Source: Candidatus Lindowbacteria bacterium RIFCSPLOWO2_12_FULL_62_27 (lineage in GTDB: Bacteria; Lindowbacteria; 2-12-FULL-62-27). Taken from it: a stretch of DNA of 64,000 nucleotides. The notes below the pieces were generated by a model. That model saw only the letters and a program-made list of their open reading frames with translations. It did no database searches and had not been told where the DNA came from. Positions within the stretch are counted from its first letter, which is position 1. Every line of letters starts with the position of its first letter. Below, piece after piece: positions 253 to 25,014 of the stretch. Both the position numbers and the translations under genes were made by a program. The stretch lies in NCBI GenBank assembly GCA_001784175.1, contig MFPR01000040.1:44955-108954 (forward strand), in the 5' to 3' direction.

Positions 253-3200
253 ACGCGGACGGCGTGGGATCGCCGGTCGTTCGTCAGCGGCACCCGCCCG
301 TCGTTCACGGGCCGGCCGTCCAGAAGAATCTTTGCGGCTGCCCGACGGCCACGGATCGTATTGCTCACCTCGATCCGGTACACCGTATCGCGGTACCGGT
401 ACGTCATCGAGTACCCCGGCCAGTCGGCGGGAACGCAGGGATCGACGGTGAAGGACTTGCCTTGAAGCTTCAGCCCCAGCAGCCACTCGATACCGATGCG
501 GTACATCCAGCCGGCCGAGCCCGTGTACCACGTCCATCCGCCGCGGCCGGTGTACGGCTCGACGCCGTACACGTCGGCGGCCATGACGTAAGGCTCGACT
601 TTGTAGCGCTCGACGGCCGCCGGCGATCCGGCGTGCCGGACGGGATTGATGAGATTGAATAGGGATACGGCGCGGGCGCGGTCCTTGAGCATGGCGTATG
701 CGAGGATCACCCAGGTGGAGGCATGCGAATACTGGCCGCCGTTCTCGCGCACGCCCGCGACGTATCCTTTGATATAGCCGGGATCCAGTTTGGATCGATC
801 GAAGGGCGGAGTCAAAAGAAGGATGAGCCCGCTCTTGCGGCGAATCAGATGCCGGTCCAGCGCCTTCATCGCGCGCCGCGCGCGCGCGCGGTCGGCCGCG
901 CCGGAAATCACGGCCCAGGATTGCGCGAGGGAGTCGATCCGGCACTCGTCATTGCGCGCCGCGCCCAGCGGCGTGCCGTCGTCCATGTAGGCGCGCCGGT
1001 ACCAGCCGCCGTCCCAGGCGTGGCGTTCGATCGAGCCGGCGATATCCCCGGCGGTCCGGCGAAACTCTTGCGCGCGACGGCCGTCGCCAAGCGATTCGCA
1101 CACGCGCGAGAACCGGTTCAGCACGTCGATCAGAAACCAGCCCAGCCACACGCTCTCTCCCTTGCCCCGGTGGCCCACCCGGTTCATGCCGTCGTTCCAG
1201 TCGCAGGAACCGATGAGCGGCAGACCGTGCCGGCCGAGGCGGACGCCTTTCCGGATCGATTTCAGACAATGCTCGTAGAGCGTGCCCCGCCGGGCGGAGA
1301 TTCTCGGAATGAAACAGCATTCCTGCTCGTGCTTCGGTACCGGTTTGCCTTCAACATAGGGAATTTTTTCGTTCAGCACGGAGTGATCGCCCGTCGCGGC
1401 GATGTAGTCGGAGACGACGTACGGCAAAAACAACAGATCGTCGGAACACCGCGTGCGTGGCCCCATCCCAAACGGCGGATGCCACCAGTGCTGCACGTCC
1501 CCCTCGACGAATTGCCGCGCGGCGGACCGCAGGATGTGTTCGCGAACGAGATGGGGCGCTGAATAAACGAGCGCGCGGGCGTCCTGAAGCTGATCGCGAA
1601 ACCCGAACGCGCCGCCGGATTGATAGAACGCCGACCGCGACCAGATCCTGCACGACAGGGTCTGGTACAGGAGCCAGCGGTTGAGCATGAGGTCGAGCGC
1701 ACGGTCCGGCGTGCGGACCTGCACGGCGCCGAGGACGCGGTCCCAGTGTTCCCGGGCCGCCGCGAGCGCCCGGTCGGCCGCGCCGTGTTTCCTGTATTTC
1801 CGGGCGACGGCCCGCGCCTCCCGCGCATCGCGTCCTTGGCCGAGGAGAAACACGATTTCGCGGCTTTGATTCGGCGCGAGGTCGAACACGACTTGGAGGG
1901 CGGCGCAGGGATCCTGAGGAATCCCCCTCTCCTCCTGAGGATTTCCCCTCTCCCCCCTTGGGGGGAGAGGGTTGGGGTGAGGGGGCTGGAAGGCCGCCGG
2001 CGAGCGCAGGACGCCCTGCGGCCCCAGAAACTCGGCGCGGCTGCAGGTGCCGGCGCGGGGAAACGCGGCGGCGCAGTCGAGAAACGCGACGCGCCCGGGA
2101 AACGGGCCGGCCTTTCGATTCCGCGCCATCAATATGCCGGTCCGGCGGTCCTGCCAGGACTCGACGTGCGGATGGGTTTCGGGGCGCGTCACGCCCAGGA
2201 CCCACTCGGCGTAGAGCGTAGCGGACACTTTTCGATATCGACCCGAACGGTTTTTCAAAACAAGCCTGTATATTTTGACCGGATCATTCATCGGGCAATA
2301 CAGGGACAGCCGCTGGTCCATGCCGTGGCTCGAATGCTCGAACACGGAGTATCCCTGGCCGTGGCGGATCACGTACGGCGCGCCGTCCCGGATCGGCGAG
2401 CAGGTCGTTGTCCAAACCTCGCCGGTTTCCTCGTCGCGCAGATACAGAACTTCACCGGGTGGATCGCTGACCGGATCGTTCGACCACGGCGTCAGCTTGT
2501 TCTCCCGGCTGTTCTCCGACCACGTGTATCCGGCGCCGGACTCGGAAACCTGGAACCCGAACCGCGGATTGGACACCACGTTCACCCACGGCGCCGGCGT
2601 CGTGCGGCCTTTCTCCAGCACGATGATGTATTCGCGGCCGTCGGCGCTGAACCCGCCGAGACCGTTGTATTCGACCAGCGTTTTTTTGTCCCACCCTCTC
2701 CCCCGTGTGTTCCCCCCTCTCCCCCGTAAGGGGGAGAGGGTTGGGGTGAGGGGGCTTTGAACCGGTCCCGGACTGAAATTCTCGAACGGCGCGCGATTCT
2801 TAGGAATGCGGCCGAACACGCGCGCGACCGCATCCGGATTGTGATATCGAGAAATCATTTCTAGCGCGCGCCGTCGGTCGGGCGCGGCGCCGGTGATGAA
2901 GCTCACGCGCGCCTCCGCGCCGGCCGGGATCCGAAGGATCGTCCGGAGACTCAGAATCGGATCGAGCACAGCGCCGGTCGATCCGCTCATCCGAAAGCCT
3001 TTCTCCATCGCCGCCGGATGATCGACCGTCCGGCCGCGGCCGATGAAGCGCGCGCGGTCGGTTTCGTACTGGACCCGGCCGGGCGGTTTCCCGTTTGGCC
3101 CGACGAGCGTATGAAACATCCAGATGGTTTTTTCATTTGCCGACCGGGGCCGGCGAAACGCCAGAATCGCGCTTGCGCGTTTGTCAAATTGCGTCTGGAC

Positions 3201-3656
3201 AAACAGATTGCTGAACGCCGGATGGGACAGATCCGCCGAGGCCGGCGCCAGAACCGCCTCCAGGTAGCTGGTCAGCTCGATGTCGCGAGATTCATCGGAA
3301 AGATTGCTGATCGTGACCCGCCTGATTTCCGCGCGTTCATTCGGTGTAACGACGATTTCCGTCCGCAACTCCATGAACGGATACGAACTCACATACTCGG
3401 ATTTGTCCGAAGAGAACCTGTATCGAAAAATCCCGGAAGCGGCCCGGACCGGCAGAAACGCCGCCGACACGACGGCGTTCGTCATCCTATCCCGCGCGTA
3501 AATAAACGGCCCCCACCCGTCCGTCGTCGGGTCATCCCGCCAGCGCGTCAGGTCCAGAGTCTGGCCGTGGATCGAGCAGAAGCTTTTCCCGCCGCCACCG
3601 TTCGTCAGAAGAACGGAATAGAAGCCGTTAGAAAGAATGCAGCTTTCCTTCCGCAT
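240..3656 (-). CDS. GH94-family glycoside phosphorylase (cellobiose/cellodextrin/chitobiose/1,2-beta-oligoglucan phosphorylase family), long form with extra N-terminal domains
   Basis: 1138-aa ORF. It carries GH94-type motifs: GLGGFSADGREYIIVL at the start of the N-terminal domain, FGFRDQLQDARAL and GDVQHWWHPP in the catalytic (alpha/alpha)6 region. It carries two in-frame insertions of the GGGAGAGG hairpin element (..SPLRGRGGNTRGRG.. and ..PPRGERGNPQEERG..). Confidence 0.8.
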   Translation of the reverse strand: MRKESCILSNGFYSVLLTNGGGGKSFCSIHGQTLDLTRWRDDPTTDGWGPFIYARDRMTNAVVSAAFLPVRAASGIFRYRFSSDKSEYVSSYPFMELRTEIVVTPNERAEIRRVTISNLSDESRDIELTSYLEAVLAPASADLSHPAFSNLFVQTQFDKRASAILAFRRPRSANEKTIWMFHTLVGPNGKPPGRVQYETDRARFIGRGRTVDHPAAMEKGFRMSGSTGAVLDPILSLRTILRIPAGAEARVSFITGAAPDRRRALEMISRYHNPDAVARVFGRIPKNRAPFENFSPGPVQSPLTPTLSPLRGRGGNTRGRGWDKKTLVEYNGLGGFSADGREYIIVLEKGRTTPAPWVNVVSNPRFGFQVSESGAGYTWSENSRENKLTPWSNDPVSDPPGEVLYLRDEETGEVWTTTCSPIRDGAPYVIRHGQGYSVFEHSSHGMDQRLSLYCPMNDPVKIYRLVLKNRSGRYRKVSATLYAEWVLGVTRPETHPHVESWQDRRTGILMARNRKAGPFPGRVAFLDCAAAFPRAGTCSRAEFLGPQGVLRSPAAFQPPHPNPLPPRGERGNPQEERGIPQDPCAALQVVFDLAPNQSREIVFLLGQGRDAREARAVARKYRKHGAADRALAAAREHWDRVLGAVQVRTPDRALDLMLNRWLLYQTLSCRIWSRSAFYQSGGAFGFRDQLQDARALVYSAPHLVREHILRSAARQFVEGDVQHWWHPPFGMGPRTRCSDDLLFLPYVVSDYIAATGDHSVLNEKIPYVEGKPVPKHEQECCFIPRISARRGTLYEHCLKSIRKGVRLGRHGLPLIGSCDWNDGMNRVGHRGKGESVWLGWFLIDVLNRFSRVCESLGDGRRAQEFRRTAGDIAGSIERHAWDGGWYRRAYMDDGTPLGAARNDECRIDSLAQSWAVISGAADRARARRAMKALDRHLIRRKSGLILLLTPPFDRSKLDPGYIKGYVAGVRENGGQYSHASTWVILAYAMLKDRARAVSLFNLINPVRHAGSPAAVERYKVEPYVMAADVYGVEPYTGRGGWTWYTGSAGWMYRIGIEWLLGLKLQGKSFTVDPCVPADWPGYSMTYRYRDTVYRIEVSNTIRGRRAAAKILLDGRPVNDGRVPLTNDRRSHAVRVYLS
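1946..1987. repeat. GGGAGAGG-family palindromic element (12-bp stem CCCTCTCCCCCC/GGGGGGAGAGGG plus GTTGGGGTGAGGGGGCT tail), in frame inside the GH94 CDS
   Basis: A stem-loop is directly readable. The same composite element recurs at 2692-2756 and 14437-14543. A second mini-palindrome TCCTCCTGAGGA lies 5' to it. Confidence 0.85.
2692..2756. repeat. GGGAGAGG-family palindromic element (half copy plus a full hairpin CCCTCTCCCCC gtaa GGGGGAGAGGG plus GTTGGGGTGAGGGGGCT), in frame inside the GH94 CDS
   Basis: Same orientation and same tail as the copy at 1946-1987. Confidence 0.85.
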
Positions 3657-14415: not shown

Positions 14416-14431
14416 AAAACATGTGCGCCAT

Positions 14432-14543
14432 TCACCTCCTCTCCCCCCGCAGGGGGGAGAGGATTGAGGTGAGGGGGGTGGCCGGCGTCGATAAAATCCT
14501 GCCACCCTCACCCCAACCCTCTCCCGCCAGAGGCGGGAGAGGG
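14432..14543. repeat. two tandem GGGAGAGG-family hairpin elements in opposite orientations (CCTCTCCCCCC gca GGGGGGAGAGG, and CCCTCTCCCGCC aga GGCGGGAGAGGG preceded by CACCCTCACCCCAACC)
   Basis: They fill the 146-bp gap between CDS 13891..14415 and the ATG at 14562. They are also in frame with the ATG at 14421. Confidence 0.85.
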
Positions 14544-14561
14544 GGGACACAGTTGCGAAAC

Positions 14562-17500
14562 ATGATATTTTGGAGTCTGAGCTGTCTCCTCCTGTCATCG
14601 GCCACGGTCGCGGACGCGGTCGAGTCGCTCCGGAACGTGTCGCTGTCCGCCAAGCCAACCGCGTCTTCTCAGTTCGATGCCGCGTCGGGCCCGCGCAACG
14701 CCATCGATGCGTCGCGGCGATCCACCTGGATCCCCGCGACCGCCGGGTCAGCGCCTCCGGCCGGAGAGGAGTGGCTGCTCCTTGAATTCGACCGCGAGGA
14801 AAACCTGCGGCGCGCGGTCCTGAACTGGGAGTTTTCCCTCAAGGCGAACTGGCGCATCGAAATTTTGCGCGGCGGGATGTGGACCGAAGCGGCGCGCGGC
14901 GTCAAGGACGGAACCGCAACGCGGATCGTCGAACTTGGAGGAAAGCGCGCGGACAAGGTGAAGCTCGTCTGCTCGGGCGCCACGCCCATGGCCTGCTCGC
15001 TGGCGGACTTCCAAGTCTGGGCGGTCGAATCGGATGTGTTTGGCGGGACGTTGGAACCGGCGGCACCGGCGCCGCCAAAATCTGAACCGGCGAAACCCCA
15101 GCCGTCCGCACCAGTCCCTGTCTTCGTCCCCGTTCCGGCGCCACCCAAGCCTCCGAAACCCGCTCCTCCACCACCGGCCGTTCCGAAACGCGAACCGGCG
15201 CCGATCCTGTCCCGGGTTCAGGCTCCGTCCAAACTCCTCGCGCCCCCGCCGCCGGCCGCAAAGAAAGCGAGCGCGCCCAGCCCCAGCCCGATTTTGCCGA
15301 TCCCTTCTCCGGTTTCTCCCCCCTTTACAAGGGGGGATCAAGGGGGGTCCGGTCTCGGGTCACGGCCGCCGGCCGACGTTCGGCCGCATCTCACGACGCT
15401 TGTAGAATCGTTTGACAATATATTGGAAAGCGTGCCCTTGGGCGCCGCGCCGGTGGCGGAGGCGTCCGAAGGCTGCGTGATGCAGGGCGCCGTGACGGGT
15501 GGCGGCTGGGGCCGGGGCGGAAGGGGCGAGGCGTACCGGGCGCGGTTCGTGGTCGTGCCGGACGGCGTCGCGACGCTGAGCCAGAAATTGAAATCGTCGG
15601 CCCCGAGCGGATGGTCGGAACTCTCCTTCTGGGTCAGAGGGTCATGGGCGGCCGGCGCCCCGCTCGAAGTCGTTCTCGCGGACGACGCAAACCAACAGGC
15701 GGCCTTGGCGGCGCCCGGAACGGAAGGCGGCAGTGCGCTCTGGCGCCAGATTAAAATCCCAGCCGGCGCCGTCAAGAAAATCAATCGCGACCGCATCAAG
15801 TCCTATATCCTCCGGTTCACGCCGGCGCATCAGGCGGGAGAAGTCTACATCGACGACATTTATCTCCACGGCGGCGCCGCACCGGGGAAGCCCCGCTCCT
15901 CCGCGGCGGATCCAAAGAAGGCTTCCGCCTCCATCTCTCCAGAACCTCCGGCCTCTATCCCTGTTTCCGACCTCGATCCGCCAGAATCTAAAATCCAAAA
16001 TCCAAAATCCAAAATCTCAAATGTTTTACCGGAGGTTCGCCCCTTCACCTACGACCCCAAAGACCGGCAGGCGGTCCACGAGATGCTGTTGGCGGCCGCC
16101 ATGAACGACCCGAAAACATCGGAGGGCCTCTCGGACGACGAATTTCTTGATCTGGTCGAACGCCGCGCGTTTTTGTATTTCTGGTATGGCGCCAATCCCG
16201 AAAACGGGATCACGCTGGATGGCGCGAAAAACTGGAAACCGGACGATGACCTCGACTGGAATTCGATCGCGGCGGTCGGGTTCGGCCTCACCGCCATCTG
16301 CATCGGCGCCGAACGCGGGTGGATCTCCAAAGAGATGGCTTACGAGCGGTGCCGCGTGACGCTCGACGCCTACTTGAACAAAATACAGAACAACCACGGG
16401 TTTTATTATCATTTCACCAATCGCAAGGGCATGAACGACCGCAATACCGAGCTTTCGTCGATCGACTCCCTCCTCATGTTTTGCGGGATGCTCTTCGCCG
16501 CTGAGTATTTCAAGAGCACGGAGGTCGAGAAAATGGCCCGGCAGATTTTTGAGCGGGTCGACTGGCGGTGGATGCACGACAACCGTAAGTTCGCGTCAAT
16601 GGCGGTGGACCCCGGCGGTAAATTTAATCCCGCAAGCTGGGACCGGCACTGCGAAGGGCAGATCCTGTCCATCCTCGAACTCGGGCATCCCCAAAACATG
16701 CCGACAGACCTCTGGTTCGACATGCCGGAACAATACGGCACATATCGGGGGTACCGCAGCCTCAACCAGGGGCCGCTCTTTACGTTTCAGTTTCCGTCCA
16801 ACTGGATCGATTTCAGGGACCGCAACGACGGGGCCGTCAATTTCTGGGAGAACGGGATCGAAGCGACGCTGGCCAACCGCTTTTACGCCATTGAAAAAAT
16901 GCCTGAACGCAAGGGGTACGGCCCGAACTCGTGGGGATTCACCGCCGGCGATTTCCCCGGCGGATACCATGCGTTTGCCGCTCCGCCCTCTTATCCGGGC
17001 GAGGACGGCACCGTCACGATCAACGCGGCGGGCGGATCTGTCATATTCACGCCGCATCTGTCCACCCAGGCGCTCCGATGGATGTACGACAACCTGCACG
17101 ACAAAGTCTGGGGCAAGTACGGGTTTACGGACGGATACAACCTCGACAAGAACTGGTCCTGCGACCGCGTGATCGGGATTGGCACAGGACCCGTTCTCCT
17201 CTCCATTGAAAATCACCGCACCGGATTCGTCTGGAAATATTTCATGCAGAACGACTATGTCAAACGCGGCATGGAACGCGTTGGCTTTAAGGACGAGCCG
17301 CGCCGGACCGCCAAAGCCCGGCCGCTGGACCTTGCCGGATACTGGAAATGGAAACCCGGCGACAACAAAACGTGGAGCAAGCCCGAGGTCGACGACTCCG
17401 GCTGGCGCGACATGTACGCGCCCGACAAGTGGGAAGTACAGCTCACGCAGGACGGCGACCGCAAGATGGCCGAGTACGACGGGTTCGGCTGGTACCGCCG

Positions 17501-17867
17501 CCGCTTCACCGTGCCGCTGGATACGTGGGAATCCTGGAAAGGTCAGGACCTGTTTTTCCACGCCGGCGCGATCGACGACGCCGACGAGGTCTTCCTGAAC
17601 GGCGAGAAGATCGGTTCGACCGGATCGATGTCCGCCGGGTCAGCGTCTCCGACGCCCCAAGTGTCGGCGTCTCCGACGCCGACCGGCGGGGAGAGCGCTT
17701 GGGAAAAACCGCGCAAGTACGCAGTCCCGCGCAAGCTCGTCAAGGTCGGCGAAGACAACGTGATCGCCGTGCGTGTCTTCGACGCCGCCGGCGGCGGCGG
17801 CCTCTGGATGCGCCCGGTCGAGCTGGGCCCGTTCCTGCCGCTCGATTTCAAACCCTGGAAGCTATAA
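14562..17867 (+). CDS. secreted multidomain glycoside hydrolase: discoidin-like domain, Pro-rich linkers, CBM-like domain, GH144-like (alpha/alpha)6 catalytic domain and a C-terminal jelly-roll domain
   Basis: Signal peptide MIFWSLSCLLLSSATVADA at the ATG at 14562. An in-frame ATG at 14421 would add a 47-aa extension made entirely of two hairpin repeat elements, and this start remains possible. Catalytic motifs LSDDEFLDLVERRAFLYFWYG and IENHRTGFVWKYFMQ. An 80-residue P/A/K-rich linker. In-frame PKSKIQN linker, CCCCCCTT/AAGGGGGG hairpin and GSASPTPQVSASPTP element. Confidence 0.75.
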   Translation: MIFWSLSCLLLSSATVADAVESLRNVSLSAKPTASSQFDAASGPRNAIDASRRSTWIPATAGSAPPAGEEWLLLEFDREENLRRAVLNWEFSLKANWRIEILRGGMWTEAARGVKDGTATRIVELGGKRADKVKLVCSGATPMACSLADFQVWAVESDVFGGTLEPAAPAPPKSEPAKPQPSAPVPVFVPVPAPPKPPKPAPPPPAVPKREPAPILSRVQAPSKLLAPPPPAAKKASAPSPSPILPIPSPVSPPFTRGDQGGSGLGSRPPADVRPHLTTLVESFDNILESVPLGAAPVAEASEGCVMQGAVTGGGWGRGGRGEAYRARFVVVPDGVATLSQKLKSSAPSGWSELSFWVRGSWAAGAPLEVVLADDANQQAALAAPGTEGGSALWRQIKIPAGAVKKINRDRIKSYILRFTPAHQAGEVYIDDIYLHGGAAPGKPRSSAADPKKASASISPEPPASIPVSDLDPPESKIQNPKSKISNVLPEVRPFTYDPKDRQAVHEMLLAAAMNDPKTSEGLSDDEFLDLVERRAFLYFWYGANPENGITLDGAKNWKPDDDLDWNSIAAVGFGLTAICIGAERGWISKEMAYERCRVTLDAYLNKIQNNHGFYYHFTNRKGMNDRNTELSSIDSLLMFCGMLFAAEYFKSTEVEKMARQIFERVDWRWMHDNRKFASMAVDPGGKFNPASWDRHCEGQILSILELGHPQNMPTDLWFDMPEQYGTYRGYRSLNQGPLFTFQFPSNWIDFRDRNDGAVNFWENGIEATLANRFYAIEKMPERKGYGPNSWGFTAGDFPGGYHAFAAPPSYPGEDGTVTINAAGGSVIFTPHLSTQALRWMYDNLHDKVWGKYGFTDGYNLDKNWSCDRVIGIGTGPVLLSIENHRTGFVWKYFMQNDYVKRGMERVGFKDEPRRTAKARPLDLAGYWKWKPGDNKTWSKPEVDDSGWRDMYAPDKWEVQLTQDGDRKMAEYDGFGWYRRRFTVPLDTWESWKGQDLFFHAGAIDDADEVFLNGEKIGSTGSMSAGSASPTPQVSASPTPTGGESAWEKPRKYAVPRKLVKVGEDNVIAVRVFDAAGGGGLWMRPVELGPFLPLDFKPWKL
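14743..14764. repeat. partial copy (5' 22 nt) of the second element family, in frame as ..TAGSAPPAGE..
   Basis: ccgggtcagcgcctccggccgg. Confidence 0.6.
15316..15350. repeat. variant hairpin element CCCCCCTT tac AAGGGGGG plus ATCAAGGGGGGTCC, in frame (..SPPFTRGDQGGSG..)
   Basis: An 8-bp perfect stem inside the Pro-rich linker of CDS 14562..17867. Confidence 0.7.
15985..16016. repeat. heptamer mini-element (CCAAAAT)x4 (first unit CTAAAAT), in frame as a ..PPESKIQNPKSKIS.. linker
   Basis: Inside CDS 14562..17867, between the Pro-rich region and the catalytic domain. Confidence 0.9.
17636..17684. repeat. second intragenic element family, in frame as ..GSASPTPQVSASPTPT.., interrupting a jelly-roll domain relative to its paralogs
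   Basis: Paralogous domains have ..TGRFPPNYETAW.. or ..TGEFPPSTGGGATW.. where this copy has TGSMSAGSASPTPQVSASPTPTGGESAW. Confidence 0.8.
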
Positions 17868-17870
17868 ATC

Positions 17871-18407
17871 GTGGAACCGAAAACTTGGGGCGTGAGCGTG
17901 ATTGTTGCGCTCCTCATGAACATCCTGGGTCTTGGCGCCGGGCTTGAGCCGCCCCGGTATGAGATGTCACTCGAAGGGCAGTGGAAGCTGTCGGCGGGGG
18001 ACAACTACGAATGGAAATCGCCCGAGTTCAATGATGAGAGCTGGAAAAACGCGCAGGTGCCCGCCGCTTGGGAGTCCCAGGGGCTGACCGATTACAACGG
18101 ATACGGCTGGTACCGCTACACGTTCGTCGTTCCCAAAGAGTGGGAAAAAACGGCGCGTGGGTTCATCCTCGACGCGGGACAGATCGACGACGAGGACATC
18201 ACGTTCGTGAACGGCCATGACGTCGGCTCCTCCTCGGGCTGGGACGTGTCCCGGTCCTACGGCGTCCCCAAATCTCTCATCAAGTTCGGCGAAAAAAATG
18301 TGATCGCCATCCGCGTCTACGACCGCACCGGCGGCGGCGGGATCCACAAAGGCCCGGTGAAGCTACGCAGCGGCGTCGTCGGCCGGTTCGACGTCGAAGG
18401 CTATTGA
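17871..18407 (+). CDS. small secreted stand-alone jelly-roll (GH2-N-like sugar-binding) domain protein, paralog 1
   Basis: 178 aa. Signal peptide, then ..KSPEFNDESWKNAQVPAAWESQGLTDYNGYGWYRYTFVVP..ILDAGQIDDEDITFVNG..IAIRVYDRTGGGG. About 75% identical to the product of 19468..20001. Confidence 0.7.
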   Translation: MEPKTWGVSVIVALLMNILGLGAGLEPPRYEMSLEGQWKLSAGDNYEWKSPEFNDESWKNAQVPAAWESQGLTDYNGYGWYRYTFVVPKEWEKTARGFILDAGQIDDEDITFVNGHDVGSSSGWDVSRSYGVPKSLIKFGEKNVIAIRVYDRTGGGGIHKGPVKLRSGVVGRFDVEGY

Positions 18408-18507
18408 TGTTTGGATTTCCCGTCAGTCCTTGGGTGTGGAGATAGATCAATCGTTTCGATCGTTTCTGAACACAAGTTCAGAAAAATAAAGTAGGAGGTG
18501 ATTCCAG

Positions 18508-19341: not shown

Positions 19342-19393
19342 AGCATTCCACATATTATTGATAGCTGTTAGAGCGTTTGGTTTGCCTTAAATT

Positions 19394-19424
19394 ATCCCTC
19401 TCCCGTCCTATGCGGGAGAGGGAT
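19394..19424. repeat. GGGAGAGG-family hairpin (ATCCCTCTCCCG tcctatg CGGGAGAGGGAT), intergenic, terminator-like
   Basis: A 12-bp perfect stem between the lectin-like gene and paralog 2; followed by AAAAGGGG rather than a T-run. Confidence 0.7.
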
Positions 19425-19467
19425 AAAAGGGGAATGGATATGACAAGAAGGGAGGGACTTTATAGAT

Positions 19468-20001
19468 ATGGCGCCAAAAACTTGTGGTATTGGTGTAATT
19501 GTTTCGCTTCTGATCAGTATTCTCGGATTAGGAACCACCTTTGAGCAACCGAAATTCGAGATTGGCTTGGAAGGACAGTGGTTGTTGTCGGCAGGGGACA
19601 ATTACGAATGGAAGTTGCCCGAGTTTCATGCCGAGGGCTGGAAGACCACGCAGGTGCCTGCCGCGTGGGAGTCCCAAGGACTGACCGATTACAACGGGCA
19701 TGGCTGGTACCTGTACACCTTTGTCGTCCCCAAAGAGTGGGAGAAAACAGCCCGCGAGTTTATCCTCGACATGGGCCAGATTGACAACGAAGATGTCACG
19801 TATGTAAACGGCCAAGACGTCGGTTCTACCAGCGGCTGGAACGTACTCCGTTCCTACGGGATACCGAAACCCCTTGTGAAATTCGGAGAAAAAAACGTCA
19901 TCGTGGTCCGCATCTACGACCGCACAAGCGGCGGCATTCTTCGGGGTCCGATCAAACTCCGCAGCGGCGGCGTTGGCCGATTCGACGTCGAAGGCTATTA
20001 A
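19468..20001 (+). CDS. small secreted stand-alone jelly-roll domain protein, paralog 2 (lower GC than paralog 1)
   Basis: 177 aa, co-linear with the 17871..18407 product (..EWKLPEFHAEGWKTTQVPAAWESQGLTDYNGHGWYLYTFVVP..). Shine-Dalgarno-like AAGGGAGGG upstream. Confidence 0.7.
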   Translation: MAPKTCGIGVIVSLLISILGLGTTFEQPKFEIGLEGQWLLSAGDNYEWKLPEFHAEGWKTTQVPAAWESQGLTDYNGHGWYLYTFVVPKEWEKTAREFILDMGQIDNEDVTYVNGQDVGSTSGWNVLRSYGIPKPLVKFGEKNVIVVRIYDRTSGGILRGPIKLRSGGVGRFDVEGY

Positions 20002-20026
20002 AATCAAAGCCGACAATTCCAAAACG

Positions 20027-22426
20027 TTGCCTCCCTGCAACAAATTTCTGGTTGTGTCTCTCGCGCTGGTCCTTTCGGCCATCGGCGTTCTCCCGGACCC
20101 TGCCCGGGCAGACTACCGGGAAGTGTTTGACATCAGTGGCAACCACGTTTTCGCTGGTGAAGAACTCCTACGGATGGAGGGTACGTCTACGACCGGTCCA
20201 GGGTCTGGTGCGTTTGATTTTGTCAATGACCAGCGTCTGTACCGGGACTGGGGTGCAACGGTCAACGTCACGGAATGGGTCAACAATATGCAGTACAATC
20301 TCGATTTTGGCCGTGTCGGTACATGGTTCACGCCGCTGACCCTTCACAAGGAACGGTTCCGGCCCGGATACGCGAATAAGTTATACGACCGCTGGTGGGA
20401 CCAGCGCACCGTGCGGTTCCGGCTGTCCAAGGCCGACCGGGAAACCACCATGCTGTTCGCCAAGACCGCGAACGCCAACGACGACGATGAGTGGTGGGGA
20501 AACACCGCCGCGTACGACAACATCGACATCGACCGCTACTTTTTCGCGTTCCGCCACCGCTTCAACCTCGCCGGCCAGACGCTCGGGTTTTCCTTCGCCA
20601 ATGAGCATTTCTCATCCTTTAAAGGCGGCGGGATCGACCTCGAATCGCCTCTGCAGGGCGACATCCCGGACGATACACCGGTGGTCATCGCGGTGCTCGT
20701 CCGGGATGATTCGCCGCTGGACAAGGACGGCAATACCGACCAGGCCGGCGCCGCCGTGTACAACATCAGAACCTTCGTGGATGGCGCGGAGGACGCCTCC
20801 TTGGCGATCACCAACGGCGATCCCGCGGGCGCCAATACCGTGCGGTACGGCAATTTCATCGAGTCGGCCGACCGCGTTGAGATGATCGGTCCGACGTCCA
20901 CCGGTTTCTCGCACTTTGTGGTCTTCTATTTCCTGCCCCCCACCACCGCCAAATCCGTGAAATTCTTCATCGATGTGGCCGGCGATTACAACATCATCGC
21001 CGCGCCCATCTCTCTGGCCGATTTCAACGGCCGAAGCCTCACCCCGTTCAGCCTGCCGTTTCTCAAGACCACGCGCGCGAAAGGGAACATCCGCGATAAC
21101 TCGAACCGGCAGACCGTTGAGGTGTCGGTCAACAAATTGACTGGCCAGAGCGTCTTCGGCATCGATCTCCATGGGCTTGTCCCCTGGGTCAACGTCGCCT
21201 TTAACGCCGAAATCGCGCGTTCGTTTCGGTACGGCAAATATCCCGTCCAGAAGGGCATCCAGACCTCGGAACACGCCGATGCCCTCTATCTGGAGCTTTC
21301 AAGGGATTTCGGCAAGGTCCTCATGGTCACCAAGGCCTGGGATTTCGATCTCGACTACGACGCATCCTTCGCCGTGGAGGACAACGACGACCGCGACGAT
21401 CAGCCGGATGTCGTCGATTACTACACGTCGAATCTGCCGGGCATCGACCGCAACAACGAGAGCGGCCCGGATTACGAGGAGGACTGGCTGCTCTTTACGG
21501 TCGACCCGCCCGTGTTTCTGGAGGGCGTCGATTACAACAACAACGACGTGCTCGACAACCTCGAAAACGACGCCAAGCCGGACTACCCGAACGGCTGGAT
21601 CGTCGGCACGCGCGGGTTCCACAGCACCCTCGCATGGAAGCCGGTGGCGGGGCTTCGGCTGACGGGCGGGTACCGGGACGAGAAGCGGGCCGTCGATGAA
21701 ACCTCCAACCGCCTGCATCACGCCCGGGCCCGGTATTCGTTCGGCCTCCCCGGCGGCGACGCCGTCCTGCGTTACGATTTCAAACGCGCGAAAGACACGA
21801 TCAACAACGACCTCGTGACGATCCCGTACGATTACGCCCAGCGCACGGAAAACCAGACGGACACCTTGGTGTTTCGCGACGCCATTCGCCAGCAGGCCGA
21901 CGTCACCCTGAATTTCCGGCCGGTCGAAAAACTGCCGATCACCGCGCGATACGCGCACGTGTTCCAGCGGCGGAAATACAACACGAGCATCGTCAACCAG
22001 GGCATCGCGATTCTGCGCGGGCAGTACGAGAACTGGCATCCGTTCCGGAGCGTCGGGTTTCTCGCCGACTGGCAAATCCTGCCGCTGTTCAAATTCCAGC
22101 GTGAATTTTCGTTTTCGGAGGCGGCCCAGAAACGCACCCACCTCTCCGACTTCTTCACCCAGTCCTTCGGAATCGAGGCCATCCGGAAGCTTTCGGACAA
22201 GACCAAGTTTTTCATGGGACACCAGATCCAGAGCCAGTCGAATTTCCTGTCGCAGACCGACTATGACCGGGGCGTGACGGCCTTCCAGCTTGTTCACAAG
22301 AACCGGTTCCGGGACAAGGAGGTTGTCATCACCACCGGCGTGAACATCATCTCCAAACGAAGCGAAAACGCCGCCGACAACCTCGAAACGATCTTCTCGT
22401 ATTTCAGGTCGTACTTCCAATGGTAA
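20027..22426 (+). CDS. predicted outer-membrane beta-barrel protein (porin-like), D/N-rich
   Basis: The TTG start at 20027 is chosen to avoid an overlap with the upstream gene; the in-frame ATG at 19973 is the alternative. Signal peptide ..KFLVVSLALVLSAIGVLPDPARA. Alternating hydrophobic beta-strand pattern and a C-terminal aromatic end ..FSYFRSYFQW, typical of OM barrels. Confidence 0.5.
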   Translation: MPPCNKFLVVSLALVLSAIGVLPDPARADYREVFDISGNHVFAGEELLRMEGTSTTGPGSGAFDFVNDQRLYRDWGATVNVTEWVNNMQYNLDFGRVGTWFTPLTLHKERFRPGYANKLYDRWWDQRTVRFRLSKADRETTMLFAKTANANDDDEWWGNTAAYDNIDIDRYFFAFRHRFNLAGQTLGFSFANEHFSSFKGGGIDLESPLQGDIPDDTPVVIAVLVRDDSPLDKDGNTDQAGAAVYNIRTFVDGAEDASLAITNGDPAGANTVRYGNFIESADRVEMIGPTSTGFSHFVVFYFLPPTTAKSVKFFIDVAGDYNIIAAPISLADFNGRSLTPFSLPFLKTTRAKGNIRDNSNRQTVEVSVNKLTGQSVFGIDLHGLVPWVNVAFNAEIARSFRYGKYPVQKGIQTSEHADALYLELSRDFGKVLMVTKAWDFDLDYDASFAVEDNDDRDDQPDVVDYYTSNLPGIDRNNESGPDYEEDWLLFTVDPPVFLEGVDYNNNDVLDNLENDAKPDYPNGWIVGTRGFHSTLAWKPVAGLRLTGGYRDEKRAVDETSNRLHHARARYSFGLPGGDAVLRYDFKRAKDTINNDLVTIPYDYAQRTENQTDTLVFRDAIRQQADVTLNFRPVEKLPITARYAHVFQRRKYNTSIVNQGIAILRGQYENWHPFRSVGFLADWQILPLFKFQREFSFSEAAQKRTHLSDFFTQSFGIEAIRKLSDKTKFFMGHQIQSQSNFLSQTDYDRGVTAFQLVHKNRFRDKEVVITTGVNIISKRSENAADNLETIFSYFRSYFQW

Positions 22427-25014
22427 CTATCCACCTCCTCTCCCCCCGCAGGGGGATGCGATGTTGGCCGGCCGTCCTTGTCCTCGCCTTGATGTGCATG
22501 TCTCCATCGGCGGTCCATGCGGCCGGGCTCATTGACAGTTTTGAAAATGACAATGCTCTTTCTGACGGTTCTGGCGCAGACGGTAAATGGGTTGTCGGAT
22601 CCGGGACTTATACGCTGACTTACGAATCGAACCGAACGTTTTTTTCGAAAGGCGCGATGCGTGTCGATTATAACAAGGCAGGCACGGCTTATACTTGGAT
22701 TGAAATTAAGGGTGTCGATACAAACATTGGCGCCAATTTCTCCAACGACACATTCATGACGGCTCGAGTTTTTGGCGCCGTCTCCATCCTGGCTAAATTC
22801 CGCGATGACGACTGTGAAAGTGATGTGCAGGTCGCCACGACTACGAATGCGACGGGATGGTCGCTTGTCACTTGGAAATATAATCCCAATGCACAGGTAG
22901 TTGGCTTATGTACCATCAATCCGAATAATATAAAAGATATGCTGTTCTTTGTGGCTCCGGGGGATACTGCCCCATCCGGAACCTTTTACATGGACAACCT
23001 CTGGCTCGGGTACGGCTATCCGAACGCCCCCGACACCGTGACCAACCTCATCGCCGTGCCGGGACCCAAAAACGGGCAGGCGCGCCTGAGCTGGACCGCG
23101 ATCGGGGACACGAACGGGCAGGACCGCGTCAAGCAGTATCTGATCCGGCAGAGCACGAGCACCATCACAGAGTCCGGGTTCAATTCCCTGACGGACCTGA
23201 CCGGTATTCCGGCGCCGTCGGCCGCCGGAACGCTCGATTCGATGATCGTGTCCGGCCTCACGGCCGGCCAGACCTATTATTTCGCCATCAAGGCGGTGGA
23301 TACGAACAGCCAGACCGACAGCCTGTCCAACGTGGCCCAGTCGGCCGCGCTGTCCTCCTCGGCCGGCAGCCTCGTCTTTGACGATTTCTCCGATGGATAC
23401 ACCAAGCCAAACGGATTCGGCAAGGACGTCGGCCAGTGGTCCAGCGGCGGCGCGACCATTTTCATCTCGACGGCCGCTCCCGCCAATTCGCTCGGCAACA
23501 TCGGCGGCGCGCTGGATATCACCTACAACCGAGGCACCGGCGAGTGCGGGTACTATTCCGTCTTGGGCGAAACGGACCTCTCCGCCTACAAGGGCATTTC
23601 TTTCTGGGCGCGCGGCGCCCTCGGTGGGGAGGAATTTCTGATCGGGTTGAAATCGGTTGTGAACGGCAAGGAATCGAAACTGCGCGCCCACGTCTATCTC
23701 AAGCAGGCGCGGATCACGGCGGCGTGGCAGAAAATCGTGATCCCGTTCGCCGCCTTTAACAAACTCGATCCCAGCGAGGTCGCCACGAGCGGGACGCCGA
23801 CCAATCCGCTGACGAAAATGGAAAACGTGTCGTTCACGTTCGGCACCCAGACGGCCTCCGCCTCCGGACAGGTCTTCATCGACGACATCGCGTTCGTGAA
23901 ATCCGTGCCGGTCGTCTTCCTCGAAAATTTCGACACCACGGCCGATCCGTCCGAAGGCACCCACGCGGCGGGCGGAAACGAGGGCGACCTCAATACGAAC
24001 AACGACGATCCCTTCATAGTGGAAAACGGACACGCCAAACTCACGTCGACCATCGCCAACCAGGGGGTATTTCTGACCCTGCTCCAGTTCGGCGACAGCA
24101 CCGGACTCGGGGACAAGACGACGCCCTTCATCGAGGCGACGCATATTTCCTTGTACGCGCGCGGCAACGTCGGCGGAGAATCGCTCGAGATCAACCTTCA
24201 GGACAAGTACAATCAAAGCCGGGCTGTGAACGTGCGGGACGTTCTCGGCACGGCCCTTCCCGCCGTCTGGACAAAAGTGTCGGTTCCGCTGATCCTGTTT
24301 CCCGGGGTCGACATGACGTTCATGGACGCCGTCCATATCCGTCTGGCCGAGGCCGGCAAGATCGCGTTCATCGATTCGATCGTCTTCGACGACAGCGCCA
24401 CGCCCACCGCGCCGTCCAATCTCCTCCTGAACGGCGTCCTCGCCACCGCCAACGCGCCCCTCACGACCCGCAACACCCTCAGCGTCACGGCCGACGACGG
24501 CGCCACGGACGTCAGCATGCAGGAGGTCCGCTTCGAGTACTCGACCACCGGCGGGTCGGACTGGAGCCTGATCGGTGTCGACCGAGACGTCGCCGATAAC
24601 ACGTACCAGGTAATCTGGGTCACCCGCAACATCGCGGGCGCCCCTTTCTACGCGGCTGTTCCCGTCAACCTCTCCTACCGCGCCGTCGCCGTGGACGTCG
24701 CGGGCAACACCACCGCCACGGCCGCGCTGGCGGCGTCCACGATCAACACGAGCAACGTGGTCGTCTATCCCAATCCCTACTATCCGTTGCAGGGCGGAAA
24801 AATGAAAATCACCAACCTGTCGACCGGCGCGACGGTCAATATCTACACGCTCTCGGGCGAGCTGGTTGTGCAGCTCCTGGATTCCGACAACGACGGCCAG
24901 GTCGACTGGACGGGCGTCAACAAGGGCGGCGACCGCGTCGCCAGCGGCCTGTACCTCTACGAGGCGATCCTCTCGGCGGGTAGAGAGCGCGGAAAGCTGG
25001 TTGTAATTAAATGA
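22420..25014 (+). CDS. secreted multidomain carbohydrate-binding protein (CBM-like modules and FN3) with a T9SS C-terminal sorting domain
   Basis: Signal peptide (alternative start at ATG 22456). FN3-like ..KQYLIRQS..GLTAGQTYYFAIKAVD. CBM-like module LVFDDFSDGY..QVFIDDIAFV. The C-terminus VVVYPNPYYPLQGGKMKITNLSTGATVNIYTLSGELV..WTGVNKGGDRVASGLYLYEA..KLVVIK matches the T9SS type-A CTD pattern. Confidence 0.7.
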   Translation: MVTIHLLSPRRGMRCWPAVLVLALMCMSPSAVHAAGLIDSFENDNALSDGSGADGKWVVGSGTYTLTYESNRTFFSKGAMRVDYNKAGTAYTWIEIKGVDTNIGANFSNDTFMTARVFGAVSILAKFRDDDCESDVQVATTTNATGWSLVTWKYNPNAQVVGLCTINPNNIKDMLFFVAPGDTAPSGTFYMDNLWLGYGYPNAPDTVTNLIAVPGPKNGQARLSWTAIGDTNGQDRVKQYLIRQSTSTITESGFNSLTDLTGIPAPSAAGTLDSMIVSGLTAGQTYYFAIKAVDTNSQTDSLSNVAQSAALSSSAGSLVFDDFSDGYTKPNGFGKDVGQWSSGGATIFISTAAPANSLGNIGGALDITYNRGTGECGYYSVLGETDLSAYKGISFWARGALGGEEFLIGLKSVVNGKESKLRAHVYLKQARITAAWQKIVIPFAAFNKLDPSEVATSGTPTNPLTKMENVSFTFGTQTASASGQVFIDDIAFVKSVPVVFLENFDTTADPSEGTHAAGGNEGDLNTNNDDPFIVENGHAKLTSTIANQGVFLTLLQFGDSTGLGDKTTPFIEATHISLYARGNVGGESLEINLQDKYNQSRAVNVRDVLGTALPAVWTKVSVPLILFPGVDMTFMDAVHIRLAEAGKIAFIDSIVFDDSATPTAPSNLLLNGVLATANAPLTTRNTLSVTADDGATDVSMQEVRFEYSTTGGSDWSLIGVDRDVADNTYQVIWVTRNIAGAPFYAAVPVNLSYRAVAVDVAGNTTATAALAASTINTSNVVVYPNPYYPLQGGKMKITNLSTGATVNIYTLSGELVVQLLDSDNDGQVDWTGVNKGGDRVASGLYLYEAILSAGRERGKLVVIK
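22432..22456. repeat. truncated 5' half of the hairpin element (25 nt identical to 14432-14456), ending at the ATG at 22456
   Basis: cacctcctctccccccgcaggggg is identical to the start of the copy at 14432. Confidence 0.75.

What the first reader, a model, noticed from the sequence alone, without database searches (positions are those of the whole stretch)
1946..22456. GGGAGAGG-family palindromic mini-elements inserted in frame within enzyme genes and at gene starts (RPE-like behaviour)
A composite element, an 11-12 bp GC stem (CCCTCTCCCCCC/GGGGGGAGAGGG) plus a GTTGGGGTGAGGGGG tail, occurs twice inside the GH94 phosphorylase gene without breaking the frame, adding ..SPLRGRGG.. and ..PPRGERG.. 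peptides. It also occurs twice in tandem in the 14416-14561 gap, where the copies are also in frame with an upstream ATG. It occurs as a variant inside a Pro-rich linker (15316), as an intergenic terminator-like hairpin (19394), and as a 25-nt 5' half-copy that ends exactly at a start codon (22432-22456). In-frame spread of palindromic elements into ORFs is best known from Rickettsia RPEs. Seeing it in a high-GC glycan-degrader is unusual, and it creates lineage-specific loops in a phosphorylase.
Basis: partly seen in the sequence, partly recalled or inferred. Interest (0 to 1): 0.7.

Follow-up and report, generated by a model that had tools for sequence, protein, structure and literature searches.

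The report
BoxC triplex repeats inside enzyme genes
The GC-rich mini-palindromes are copies of the known bacterial BoxC / "intrastrand triplex" repeat, here translated as floppy loops inside working enzyme genes, and related loci show that this repeat forms the inverted ends of a small endonuclease (DUF559) gene cassette, which suggests where it comes from.

Summary
The window has four full copies of a hairpin-plus-G-tail element (1946-1985, 2715-2754, 14437-14477, 14503-14543), one sequence variant (15317-15346) and two decayed copies (19396-19422, 22432-22456). Shuffled sequence gives none.

The element is not new. It is the BoxC / PIT / TM_ECO "intrastrand triplex" repeat described in E. 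coli (Holder 2015). Its exact 21-nt core occurs in at least 120 species genomes from a dozen phyla.

The coding behaviour is real. Copy A adds 14 residues absent from all 39 GH94 homologues. Copy B sits in a length-variable linker. AlphaFold2 gives both peptides pLDDT below 50 and no secondary structure. Five of six frames of this variant lack stops. Pfam confirmed in-frame copies in other phyla (HsdR, an aaRS, UDP-galactopyranose mutase). Published E. coli copies are all intergenic.

One lead goes beyond the finding. In 80 DUF559 (Vsr-like endonuclease) loci chosen by protein alone, the gene is bracketed by inverted copies of this architecture. C-arm, G-arm and tail covary three ways. Gene-less inverted pairs, such as 14437-14543, look like MITE-type derivatives.

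Mobilisation by DUF559 is inferred, not shown. The window has no DUF559 gene.

The parts
1946..1985 (+). Copy A. It consists of a C-arm CCCTCTCCCCCC, a loop TT, a G-arm GGGGGGAGAGGG, a linker TT(G) and a mirror tail GGGTGAGGGGG. The minus-strand GH94 gene reads it as PPHPNPLPPRGERG (aa 558-571).
1912..1953 (.). 21-nt tandem duplication (2.0 copies, 90% match) of the outer arm plus flank next to copy A. It gives ERGNPQE/ERGIPQD and, together with the element, replaces the ancestral loop LSGxxGxxL.
2715..2754 (+). Copy B, with the same architecture and loop GTAA. It is read as SPLTPTLSPLRGRGG in the GH94 inter-domain linker (aa about 300-315).
2694..2705 (+). Extra arm copy CCCTCTCCCCCG lying 21 nt from the C-arm of copy B. 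The duplication is in frame and gives RGRGGNT/RGRGWDK.
14437..14477 (+). Copy C, the left member of the inverted pair. It carries a three-way compensated variant: C-arm T, G-arm A (GGGAGAGGA) and tail A (AGGTGAGGG).
14503..14543 (-). Copy D, the right member of the inverted pair, with a 25-nt spacer and tails pointing inward. It carries a compensated stem change (GGCGGGAGAGGG / CCCTCTCCCGCC) with a T in the tail opposite it.
15317..15346 (+). A motif with the same arm/arm/mirror-tail architecture but a different sequence (TCCCCCC-TTTACA-AGGGGGG-ATCAA-GGGGGG). It is read as SPPFTRGDQGG in the Pro-rich linker of ORF 14421-17867.
   Evidence: a poly-C/G variant flanks a DUF559 gene in L151
19392..19426 (.). 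Intergenic perfect 15-bp hairpin with CCCTCTCCCG/CGGGAGAGGG arms. The tail is degenerate and there is no T-run.
   Evidence: (-16.4 kcal/mol, z -7.6)
22432..22456 (+). Truncated copy. 24 nt (CACCTCCTCTCCCCCCGCAGGGGG) are identical to the left end of copy C, then the sequence breaks off. It lies in the 30-nt gap between stop 22426 and ATG 22457, or alternatively encodes IHLLSPRRG if ATG 22420 is the start.
240..3656 (-). Host gene: GH94 glycoside phosphorylase, 1138 aa. Its best solved relative is the GH94 domain of cyclic beta-1,2-glucan synthase (8rf9, E 1.7e-272). Catalytic-site motifs are retained (DWNDG 819-823, RENGGQYxH 970-978).
14421..17867 (+). Host ORF: glycoamylase-family (PF10091) protein. 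Public gene callers start it at ATG 14421, which would translate copies C and D. ATG 14563 (MIFWSLSCLLLSSATVADA, signal-peptide-like) is an alternative start. This is not resolved.

Best explanation
**What the elements are.** They are members of the BoxC / PIT / TM_ECO repeat family. Each is a 35-45-nt unit with four parts: a pyrimidine arm (CCCTCTCCC...), its complementary purine arm (GGGAGAGGG), a 2-3-nt linker, and a second purine block (GGGTGAGGG). The second block is the mirror image of the purine arm. As a single strand the unit can fold into a hairpin, onto which the tail can lie as the third strand of a purine-motif triplex.

**Where they come from (inferred).** The family behaves like a non-autonomous, MITE- or REPIN-like repeat. 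In other genomes, two inverted copies form the 45-80-bp terminal inverted repeats of a roughly 0.5-kb cassette. Its only gene encodes a 115-125-aa DUF559 (Vsr-like PD-(D/E)xK) endonuclease. Gene-less inverted pairs (here 14437-14543) and solo copies are the far more numerous derivatives.

**What happened in this Lindowbacteria genome.** Copies have landed in coding DNA. They persist there for three reasons:
- The TTG variant has stop codons in only one of six frames.
- Net length was brought to a multiple of three. A 21-nt secondary duplication lies beside both GH94 copies.
- The Pro/Gly/Arg-rich peptides sit in a disordered loop and an inter-domain linker of a GH94 phosphorylase that keeps its catalytic motifs.

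**Shown:** family identity; lineage-specific insertion of copy A; disorder of both peptides; in-frame copies in other phyla; bracketing of DUF559 genes; three-way covariation.

**Inferred:** that DUF559 mobilises the repeats in trans; that the triplex forms in vivo; and the chemistry of insertion.
For: **Family identity**
- Holder et al. 2015 (PMC4666352) define TM_ECO as CCCTCNCCC N3-6 GGGNGAGGG N3 GGGNGAGGG. They list 23 K-12 copies, including 5 closely spaced inverted pairs, 4 of them tails-inward with 16-27-nt spacers.
- Window copies A, B and D match this pattern with a stem extended to 11-12 bp.
- The core 21-mer is exact in 126 sites of 120 loci. These come from Proteobacteria, Planctomycetota, Verrucomicrobiota, Chloroflexota, Acidobacteriota, Cyanobacteriota, Myxococcota, Bacteroidota, CPR and others. 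All have the same architecture and variable loops.

**Insertion and tolerance**
- Copy A's 14 columns are empty in 39 of 39 homologues.
- A codon alignment with a 70%-identical relative shows about 30 nt (33 counting the flanking CGG/CAG codon) replaced by 72 nt.
- The AF2 model (pTM 0.83) has pLDDT below 50 and coil at 284-321 and 560-580, between confident strands.

**Generality of in-frame copies**
- About 20 of 126 copies have at least 100 open codons on both sides.
- Pfam places copies inside the SWI2_SNF2 domain of an HsdR (L011), inside tRNA-synt_1 (L096) and inside GLF of a Muribaculaceae mutase (L041).
- Pfam also places copies between the domains of an IcmF-like mutase (L112), in GlnE (L020) and in PriA (L035).

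**DUF559 link**
- Of 80 metagenome loci selected only by a tail-free DUF559 profile, 42 carry the TM motif in a fixed geometry. The (+) copy lies a median 104 nt upstream of the domain match and the (-) copy a median 20 nt downstream. Background is 7 hits in 111 kb.
- Most of the other 38 loci are bracketed by other sequence families of the same architecture (by inspection).
- The inverted-repeat score of the flanks has a median of 20, against 7 for shuffled flanks (maximum 10). One locus has a perfect 50-bp repeat and another an 83-bp one.
- G-arm families pair with their own mirror tails: GGGAGAGGG with GGGTGAGGG, GGGGGAGGG with GGGTGGGGG, GGGGGAAGG with GGATGGGGG, GGGAGAGGA with AGGTGAGGG. 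79 of 114 score at least 8/9, against 37% when tails are swapped.
- The stop codon of E. coli ycjD (DUF559) lies inside a degenerate copy. The classic BoxC next to fabI lies 168 nt downstream.
- DUF559 genes on viral contigs show the same ends.
- Milman 2023 found DUF559 enriched 14-fold among genes flanked by invertible repeats.

**Presence/absence**
- The E. coli hrpB-mrcB site has full-pair, collapsed-hairpin and empty alleles.
Against: - No DUF559 gene is present in the 64-kb window or in about 10 kb of extra flank. The rest of the Lindowbacteria genome could not be searched.
- No target-site duplication or clean insertion boundary was seen at GH94 copy A or at the E. coli filled/empty site. 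Transposition chemistry is therefore undemonstrated.
- More than 95% of the 126 sampled copies have no DUF559 gene within 8 kb.
- In L035 the flanking copies have the opposite polarity (tails outward).
- Published work found no triplex in double-stranded DNA or in vivo, and no link to known mobile elements in E. coli.
- The bracketing could instead reflect a host enzyme whose gene attracts, or is regulated by, the repeats.
- Protein identity differs only weakly between inverted-repeat families (55.5% against 53.6%).
- Copy B cannot be shown to be an insertion rather than a remodelled linker.
Confidence: 0.7

Rival explanations
1. The repeats are not mobile parasites. They are host structural DNA motifs (triplex or hairpin) with a cellular role, for example pausing replication or promoting recombination and local variability. 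On this view DUF559 is a housekeeping nuclease that processes them, and its gene sits among them for autoregulation. The coding copies would be by-products of locally induced repair and duplication.
For: - Holder 2015 links the motif to local genome instability and finds no association with known mobile elements.
- No target-site duplication was seen.
- 21-nt slippage-type duplications lie next to both GH94 copies.
- A genomic-island breakpoint lies about 40 nt from a BoxC in E. coli.
Against: - A host motif would not be expected to keep an identical 21-mer across a dozen phyla while being absent from close relatives. Holder reports that Salmonella lacks it and that counts range from 1 to 29 among E. 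coli strains.
- Each cassette has its own matched inverted-repeat pair, including the loop sequence.
- A whole cassette sits in frame inside priA.
- The motif is also carried on viral contigs.
Confidence: 0.17
2. The elements act at the RNA level, as REP-like mRNA-stabilising hairpins or terminators between genes. The copies in ORFs would be incidental.
For: - The hairpins are stable: -13 to -18 kcal/mol as DNA for full copies A-D and the 19392 hairpin (weaker, -6 to -10, for the C6 variant and the half copy), and z -6 to -7.6 for the pair and the 19394 hairpin.
- Three sites lie at gene boundaries (14437-14543, 19392-19426, 22432-22456).
Against: - No copy is followed by a T-run. The terminator scan flags none of them.
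- Published assays found no promoter or terminator activity for PIT elements.
- Rfam has no match.
- The mirror tail covaries with the purine arm. A purine-motif triplex of this kind is reported not to form in RNA.
- Both orientations occur relative to genes.
Confidence: 0.06
3. The sequences are native low-complexity Pro/Gly-rich coding sequence, or chance GC-rich palindromes, in a 62% GC genome. On this view they are not a repeat family.
For: They lie in loop and linker regions where low-complexity sequence is common. ORF 14421-17867 has a long Pro-rich linker.
Against: - Shuffles give 0.
- Copies A and B share 27 identical nucleotides but are read in different frames.
- The same 21-mer occurs in hundreds of unrelated loci.
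- The insertion is absent from 39 homologues.
Confidence: 0.02

Closest known systems
BoxC / PIT elements / TM_ECO intrastrand triplex motif of E. coli (Bergler 1992; Hoyne & Maher 2000; Holder et al. 2015, PMC4666352)
   Same: - It has the same three-block architecture and almost the same sequence (CCCTCNCCC - loop - GGGAGAGGG - 3 nt - GGGTGAGGG).
- It forms the same inverted pairs with spacers of about 16-27 nt.
- It shows the same presence/absence and 'collapse to one hairpin' polymorphism.
   Different: - The window copies have an 11-12-bp stem (the arms extend into the 'loop') and a TTG second loop, which leaves 5 of 6 frames open. The common E. coli TTA type leaves 3 of 6.
- Three copies are translated inside genes, whereas all 23 K-12 copies are intergenic.
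- The host is a candidate phylum (Lindowbacteria), not a proteobacterium.
Rickettsia palindromic elements (RPEs; Ogata et al. 2000; reviewed in PMC10969869)
   Same: Both are palindromic repeats inserted in frame into unrelated enzyme genes. Both add peptides at positions compatible with the fold.
   Different: - RPEs are about 100-150 bp, restricted to Rickettsia, and unrelated in sequence. Each family contributes one conserved peptide.
- The elements here are 35-45 bp, cross-phylum, and used in five reading frames. They also have a triplex-type tail.
REP / REPIN - RAYT systems (Nunvar 2010; Bertels & Rainey 2011; cited from my own knowledge)
   Same: - Both are short GC-rich palindromes that occur singly and as inverted doublets.
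- In both, a nuclease-type gene is itself flanked by inverted copies of the repeat it is thought to disperse.
- In both, gene-less copies greatly outnumber copies next to a gene. RAYT is usually single-copy; DUF559 copy number was not tested here.
   Different: - The flanked gene here is a Vsr-like PD-(D/E)xK DUF559 protein, not an HUH/Y1 (IS200/IS605-type) transposase.
- There is no GTAG/CTAC end motif.
- The repeats carry a mirror-repeat third block.
- The same repeat sequence is shared across phyla rather than being species-specific.
- REPs are extragenic by definition.
Vsr / DUF559 / I-Bth0305I clade of PD-(D/E)xK nucleases (PMC3424549; PMC3239194; PDB 3hrl)
   Same: The cassette protein matches PF04480 and the DUF559 structure 3hrl (E 1.4e-35). 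The clade contains a bona fide homing endonuclease.
   Different: The DUF559 cassettes are free-standing, not carried in an intron or intein, and are bounded by structured inverted repeats. No activity or target is known for them.

Membership tests
BoxC / PIT / TM_ECO | Three blocks in the order pyrimidine arm CCCTCNCCC, purine arm GGGNGAGGG, purine mirror block GGGNGAGGG, with a second loop of about 3 nt | tested here: met
   Regex hits for copies A, B and D. Copy C meets it with a three-way compensated change: TCCTCTCCC / GGGAGAGGA / AGGTGAGGG.
BoxC / PIT / TM_ECO | First loop of 3-6 nt between 9-nt arms | tested here: not met
   Counted from the 9-nt cores, the interval is 8-9 nt, because the stem is extended by 2-3 further pairs. 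The real loops are 2-4 nt. This is a stem-extended variant.
BoxC / PIT / TM_ECO | Exclusively intergenic location, as in E. coli K-12 | tested here: not met
   Copies A and B lie inside GH94 and the variant at 15317 lies inside ORF 14421-17867. In-frame copies in other phyla were confirmed by Pfam.
BoxC / PIT / TM_ECO | Occurrence as closely spaced inverted pairs | tested here: met
   C(+)/D(-) have a 25-nt spacer and the pair folds at -43.5 kcal/mol, z -6.1. K-12 pairs are listed.
BoxC / PIT / TM_ECO | The isolated strand forms an intrastrand purine-motif triplex in vitro | not testable with these tools
   Only indirect evidence is available: the mirror tail covaries with the purine arm across families.
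Rickettsia palindromic elements | In-frame insertion into unrelated protein-coding genes | tested here: met
Rickettsia palindromic elements | Element length of about 100-150 bp, with one conserved peptide per family | tested here: not met
   The elements are 35-45 nt. Copies A and B are read in different frames, and five frames are used across loci.
Rickettsia palindromic elements | Sequence homology to RPE consensus sequences | not tested
   No RPE library was available. The sequence is instead near-identical to E. coli BoxC.
REP / REPIN-RAYT | Associated Y1 (IS200/IS605-like) RAYT gene flanked by the repeats | not tested
   The window was not scanned for Y1 transposases. In related loci the flanked gene is DUF559.
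REP / REPIN-RAYT | Conserved GTAG/CTAC tetranucleotide at the foot of the palindrome | tested here: not met
   It is not present in any of the copies read.
MITE | Short non-coding unit bounded by terminal inverted repeats shared with a gene-carrying element | tested here: met
   The C/D pair has the geometry of DUF559 cassettes minus the gene. This was shown in other genomes, not in this one.
MITE | Target-site duplication flanking insertions | tested here: inconclusive
   No duplication was visible at the E. coli filled/empty site or at GH94 copy A. The alleles compared are old.

The most novel reading that the evidence does not exclude
BoxC/PIT repeats, unexplained since 1992, are the terminal inverted repeats and MITE/REPIN-like offspring of a cross-phylum selfish (or domesticated) cassette. 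The cassette encodes a DUF559 Vsr-like endonuclease that recognises a folded intrastrand triplex. On this reading the three-way covariation of pyrimidine arm, purine arm and mirror tail is the first evolutionary evidence that such a triplex, or a protein reading all three blocks, matters in vivo. In-frame landings of these repeats would then be a general source of new loops in bacterial proteins well beyond Rickettsia.
Probability: 0.45. Interest if true: 0.85.

Novelty: new variant of a known kind. Interest (0 to 1): 0.6.

Why it matters
For this window alone the result is modest. A known repeat family has remodelled a loop and a linker of a GH94 phosphorylase and the 5' ends of two glycan-degrading genes.

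The wider point concerns a 30-year-old orphan repeat whose function and origin are unknown. In the papers I could search, it had been analysed gene by gene only in E. coli K-12, where it is intergenic.
- It turns out to be translated inside genes in many phyla.
- It is physically coupled to one small nuclease gene.

That coupling gives a concrete hypothesis that cheap experiments can test: a REPIN-RAYT-like system built on a Vsr-like nuclease and a triplex-forming end.

There is also a practical point. The peptides these repeats encode (PHPNPLP, PLTPTLSP, PSPQPSP, GEGWGEG, GERVGVRG) are markers of repeat-derived insertions, or of over-extended gene calls, in metagenomic proteins.

Tried and rejected
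- **Rfam, gathering thresholds, whole window:** no match.
- **Terminator/promoter scan of 14200-22600:** none of the copies is flagged.
- **G-quadruplex reading:** the TM core has four G3 tracts, but other cassette families (GGGGGAAGG / GGATGGGGG) keep mirror symmetry without four G3 tracts. G4 is therefore less well supported than triplex.
- **Target-site duplication:** none was found at copy A against the 70% relative or at the E. coli hrpB-mrcB alleles.
- **E. coli ycjD locus polymorphism:** this was uninformative. The differences are due to an inserted efflux island.
- **The repeat finder for short inverted repeats:** the output was dominated by imperfect GC palindromes and was not useful.
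- **DNA of the 55% full-length homologue P0003:** not retrievable.
- **Profile search for DUF559 proteins:** the top 120 were almost all Acinetobacter or E. coli, with no Lindowbacteria hit and no taxonomic insight.
- **Literature searches:** searches for the element peptides, DUF559, ycjD and PF04480 found no paper linking DUF559 to BoxC or describing coding copies. The library excludes most subscription journals.
- **blastn of the 47-nt element against E. coli genomes:** only 24 weak hits, because of the low-complexity filter. The family link came from the literature table instead.
Full report
**1. The observation**

The motif counts are far above chance. GGGGGGAGAGGG with up to 1 mismatch occurs 10 times against 0.57 expected. 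The tail GTTGGGGTGAGGGGG with up to 2 mismatches occurs 4 times against 0.16 expected.

Reading the sequence gives the following inventory:

| Copy | Coordinates | Strand | State |
|---|---|---|---|
| A | 1946-1985 | + | full |
| B | 2715-2754 | + | full |
| C | 14437-14477 | + | full |
| D | 14503-14543 | - | full |
| variant | 15317-15346 | + | same layout, different sequence |
| hairpin | 19392-19426 | . | tail-less |
| half copy | 22432-22456 | + | truncated |

- The half copy is identical over 24 nt to the left end of copy C.
- A sequence-agnostic scan for 'pyrimidine arm / complementary purine arm / mirror purine tail' finds five distinct motifs, and none in 20 Markov shuffles.
- As single-stranded DNA the full copies and the 19392 hairpin fold at -13 to -18 kcal/mol, the C/D pair at -43.5 (z -6.1) and the C6 variant and half copy more weakly, at -6 to -10.
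- C and D are inverted, not tandem.
- All copies lie in the first 22.5 kb of the window.

**2. The host genes**

ORF 240-3656 (minus strand) is an intact 1138-aa GH94 protein (PF06165 + PF17167).
- Its closest solved relative is the GH94 domain of cyclic beta-1,2-glucan synthase.
- The identical protein occurs on eight contigs from independent assemblies and in an NCBI MAG named Candidatus Lindowbacteria. The sequence is therefore not an assembly artefact.
- Catalytic-site motifs are invariant in a 40-sequence alignment.

Copy A encodes PPHPNPLPPRGERG.
- None of 39 homologues has residues in those 14 columns.
- A codon alignment with a 70%-identical relative shows about 30 nt (33 counting the flanking CGG/CAG codon) of ancestral loop replaced by 72 nt. 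The 72 nt comprise the element plus a 21-nt tandem duplication of its outer arm and flank.

Copy B encodes SPLTPTLSPLRGRGG, in a different frame of the element.
- It lies in the linker between the N-terminal domain and the supersandwich domain.
- That linker ranges from nothing (the relative L124, where the gene is even split into two ORFs at this point) to about 230 residues.
- It too is followed by a 21-nt arm duplication.

An AlphaFold2 model (pTM 0.83) gives pLDDT below 50 and no secondary structure at 284-321 and 560-580, between confident strands. This covers the element-derived peptides (aa ~300-322 and 558-581) and, for the first segment, about 15 further linker residues upstream of copy B; other conserved loops are also below 50.

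The status of C and D as coding is open. Public gene calls start the glycoamylase-family ORF at ATG 14421. A signal-peptide-like start exists at 14563.

**3. What the element is**

A full-text search for the core sequence led to Holder et al. 2015 (PMC4666352). The element is the E. coli BoxC repeat. It was rediscovered in 2000 as the PIT (potential intrastrand triplex) element and later named TM_ECO.

Its pattern is CCCTCNCCC N3-6 GGGNGAGGG N3 GGGNGAGGG.

Published facts about it:
- K-12 has 23 copies, all intergenic, and five inverted pairs.
- The isolated strand forms a triplex in vitro, but not detectably in duplex DNA or in vivo.
- It has no promoter or terminator activity.
- There are 3610 copies in 262 proteobacterial genomes.
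- It is associated with local variability.

The window copies are a variant with a stem lengthened to 11-12 bp and TTG as the second loop.

They span Alpha-, Beta- and Gammaproteobacteria, Desulfobacterota, Myxococcota, Planctomycetota, Verrucomicrobiota, Chloroflexota, Acidobacteriota, Cyanobacteriota, Bacteroidota, Calditrichota, Methylomirabilota, Actinomycetota and CPR.
- All have the same architecture and variable, covarying loop-proximal stems.
- The 21-mer is also in at least 120 IMG/VR contigs.

The family is therefore neither new nor unusual for a high-GC organism.

**4. Is coding use special to this window?**

No.
- The TTG variant has a stop (TGA) in only one of six frames. The commonest E. 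coli type (TTA) has stops in three.
- Of 126 copies, about 20 have at least 100 open codons on both sides.
- Pfam scans of ten such ORFs showed real in-frame copies:
  - inside the SWI2/SNF2 domain of a type I restriction R subunit (L011);
  - inside the catalytic domain of a class I aminoacyl-tRNA synthetase (L096);
  - inside the GLF domain of a Muribaculaceae UDP-galactopyranose mutase (L041), where the domain is about 12 residues longer than its profile;
  - between domains of an IcmF-like mutase (L112), in GlnE (L020) and in PriA (L035).
- All five open frames are used.
- I found no paper describing this. The 2024 MITE review does not mention BoxC.

**5. A lead to origin and mechanism**

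Clustering ORFs from the 120 loci singled out a DUF559 (PF04480) family whose members abut the element.
- In E. coli K-12, the stop codon of ycjD (DUF559) lies inside a degenerate copy.
- It is followed by a duplicated ycjD 3' fragment and then, 168 nt downstream, by the classic BoxC beside fabI.

To test the link without ascertainment through the repeat, I fetched 80 metagenome loci with a profile of four DUF559 domains trimmed of any repeat-encoded tail.
- 42 of the 80 carry the TM motif in one geometry. A (+) copy lies a median 104 nt upstream of the domain match and a (-) copy a median 20 nt downstream, with tails pointing at the gene. Background is 7 hits in 111 kb.
- By inspection, most of the other 38 are bracketed by inverted repeats of the same architecture but different sequence. 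Examples are CCTTCCCCC / GGGGGAAGG / GGATGGGGG, CCCTCCCCC / GGGGGAGGG / GGGTGGGGG, and a poly-C/G type like window 15317. Some have an extra hairpin before the tail.
- The flanks form inverted repeats with a median score of 20, against 7 for shuffled flanks. Some reach a perfect 50 bp or 83 bp and include the loop.
- Across 114 hairpins, each purine-arm family has its own mirror tail. 79 of 114 score at least 8/9, against 37% with swapped tails.
- Window copies C and D carry the same three-way compensations.
- The proteins keep an invariant R..F.RQ..DF.C..E.DGGQH..D..R..RFWN signature. They match the DUF559 structure 3hrl, in the Vsr / I-Bth0305I homing-endonuclease clade.
- DUF559 genes on viral contigs have the same ends.
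- Milman 2023 independently found DUF559 enriched 14-fold among genes flanked by invertible repeats.

Gene-less inverted pairs have the geometry of a cassette without its gene. Examples are the window's C/D pair with its 25-nt spacer and four of the five K-12 pairs with 16-27-nt spacers (the fifth is tails-outward with a 59-nt spacer).

In E. coli one site shows full-pair, collapsed-hairpin and empty alleles.

**6. Interpretation**

The best-supported reading is that these are BoxC/PIT repeats behaving as MITE- or REPIN-like derivatives of DUF559 cassettes. On this reading they have landed in coding DNA and survive as translated, disordered loops.

The closest mechanistic analogue is the REPIN-RAYT system, but with a Vsr-like nuclease and triplex-type ends.

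What is not shown:
- that DUF559 moves the repeats;
- that the triplex forms in cells;
- how insertion occurs, since no target-site duplication was seen;
- that this genome has a DUF559 gene. None is present in the window or its flanks.

More than 95% of sampled copies have no DUF559 within 8 kb. That fits a non-autonomous repeat, but it also fits the rival view that these are host structural motifs serviced by a housekeeping nuclease.

**7. Verdict**

The RPE-like behaviour is real, but the family is known, is not RPE, and is not unusual in its distribution.
- As a window-level finding it is a new variant of a known kind.
- Its value lies in two general points that I could not find in the searchable literature: in-frame coding copies of BoxC across phyla, and the DUF559 cassette with three-way covarying ends.

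Noticed in passing
L035:1774-4404 (MAG Gastranaerophilales, CANQMP010000011.1): A PriA helicase ORF carries a complete DUF559 endonuclease domain (aa 235-342) in frame between its 3'BD and DEAD domains. Repeat-encoded peptides flank it on both sides, here with tails pointing outward, unlike the usual cassette. It looks like an intein-less in-frame insertion of a nuclease gene into an essential replication gene.
   Followed up: partly
L124:2151-5302 (Logan SRR22387819): The 70%-identical GH94 relative is split into two ORFs overlapping by GTGA, exactly at the linker where window copy B sits. This could be a real split gene, a frameshift or a sequencing error.
   Followed up: partly
window 1912-1953 and 2694-2735: Both intragenic copies are accompanied by a 21-nt (7-codon) tandem duplication of the outer arm plus flanking bases (ERGNPQE/ERGIPQD; RGRGGNT/RGRGWDK). 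This may be slippage at the hairpin or a frame-restoring secondary event.
   Followed up: partly
window 14421-14456 and 22420-22455: Two ORFs for secreted glycan-active proteins both begin M-x-x-I-H-L-L-S-P-R-R-G. In each, an ATG lies 12 nt before the identical 24-nt left end of the repeat. The repeat end may therefore donate, or mimic, an N-terminus or start region.
   Followed up: no
window 18001-20000: GC drops to 0.51, against 0.60-0.66 around it. The dip spans two ORFs, one without a Pfam match (18508-19341) and one with only a weak GH2 sugar-binding match (19468-20001). The tail-less hairpin lies between them. This may be foreign DNA.
   Followed up: no
L125:2030-2780 (E. coli K-12, ycjD-fabI spacer): A roughly 45-nt fragment of the ycjD 3' end is duplicated downstream of the gene next to a GGGTTAGGGG remnant, before the intact BoxC. 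This suggests repeated rearrangement at the cassette end.
   Followed up: partly
L206 (E. coli O157:H7) against L125: In about 38% of complete E. coli genomes the fabI-ycjD spacer is interrupted by an island carrying a TetR regulator and an RND efflux pump. The breakpoint lies about 40 nt from the BoxC position.
   Followed up: partly
L211-L290 and L331-L340 (IMG/VR contigs): The exact 21-mer occurs in at least 120 predicted viral contigs, and DUF559 genes there have the same inverted ends. Phages or prophages may be vehicles for cross-phylum spread. Host DNA in the contigs was not excluded.
   Followed up: partly
window 1-25000: The repeats sit in a dense glycan-utilisation cluster: GH94, two PF10091 glycoamylase-family proteins, a GH2-like protein, and F5/8 type C and CBM30 modules.
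   Followed up: no
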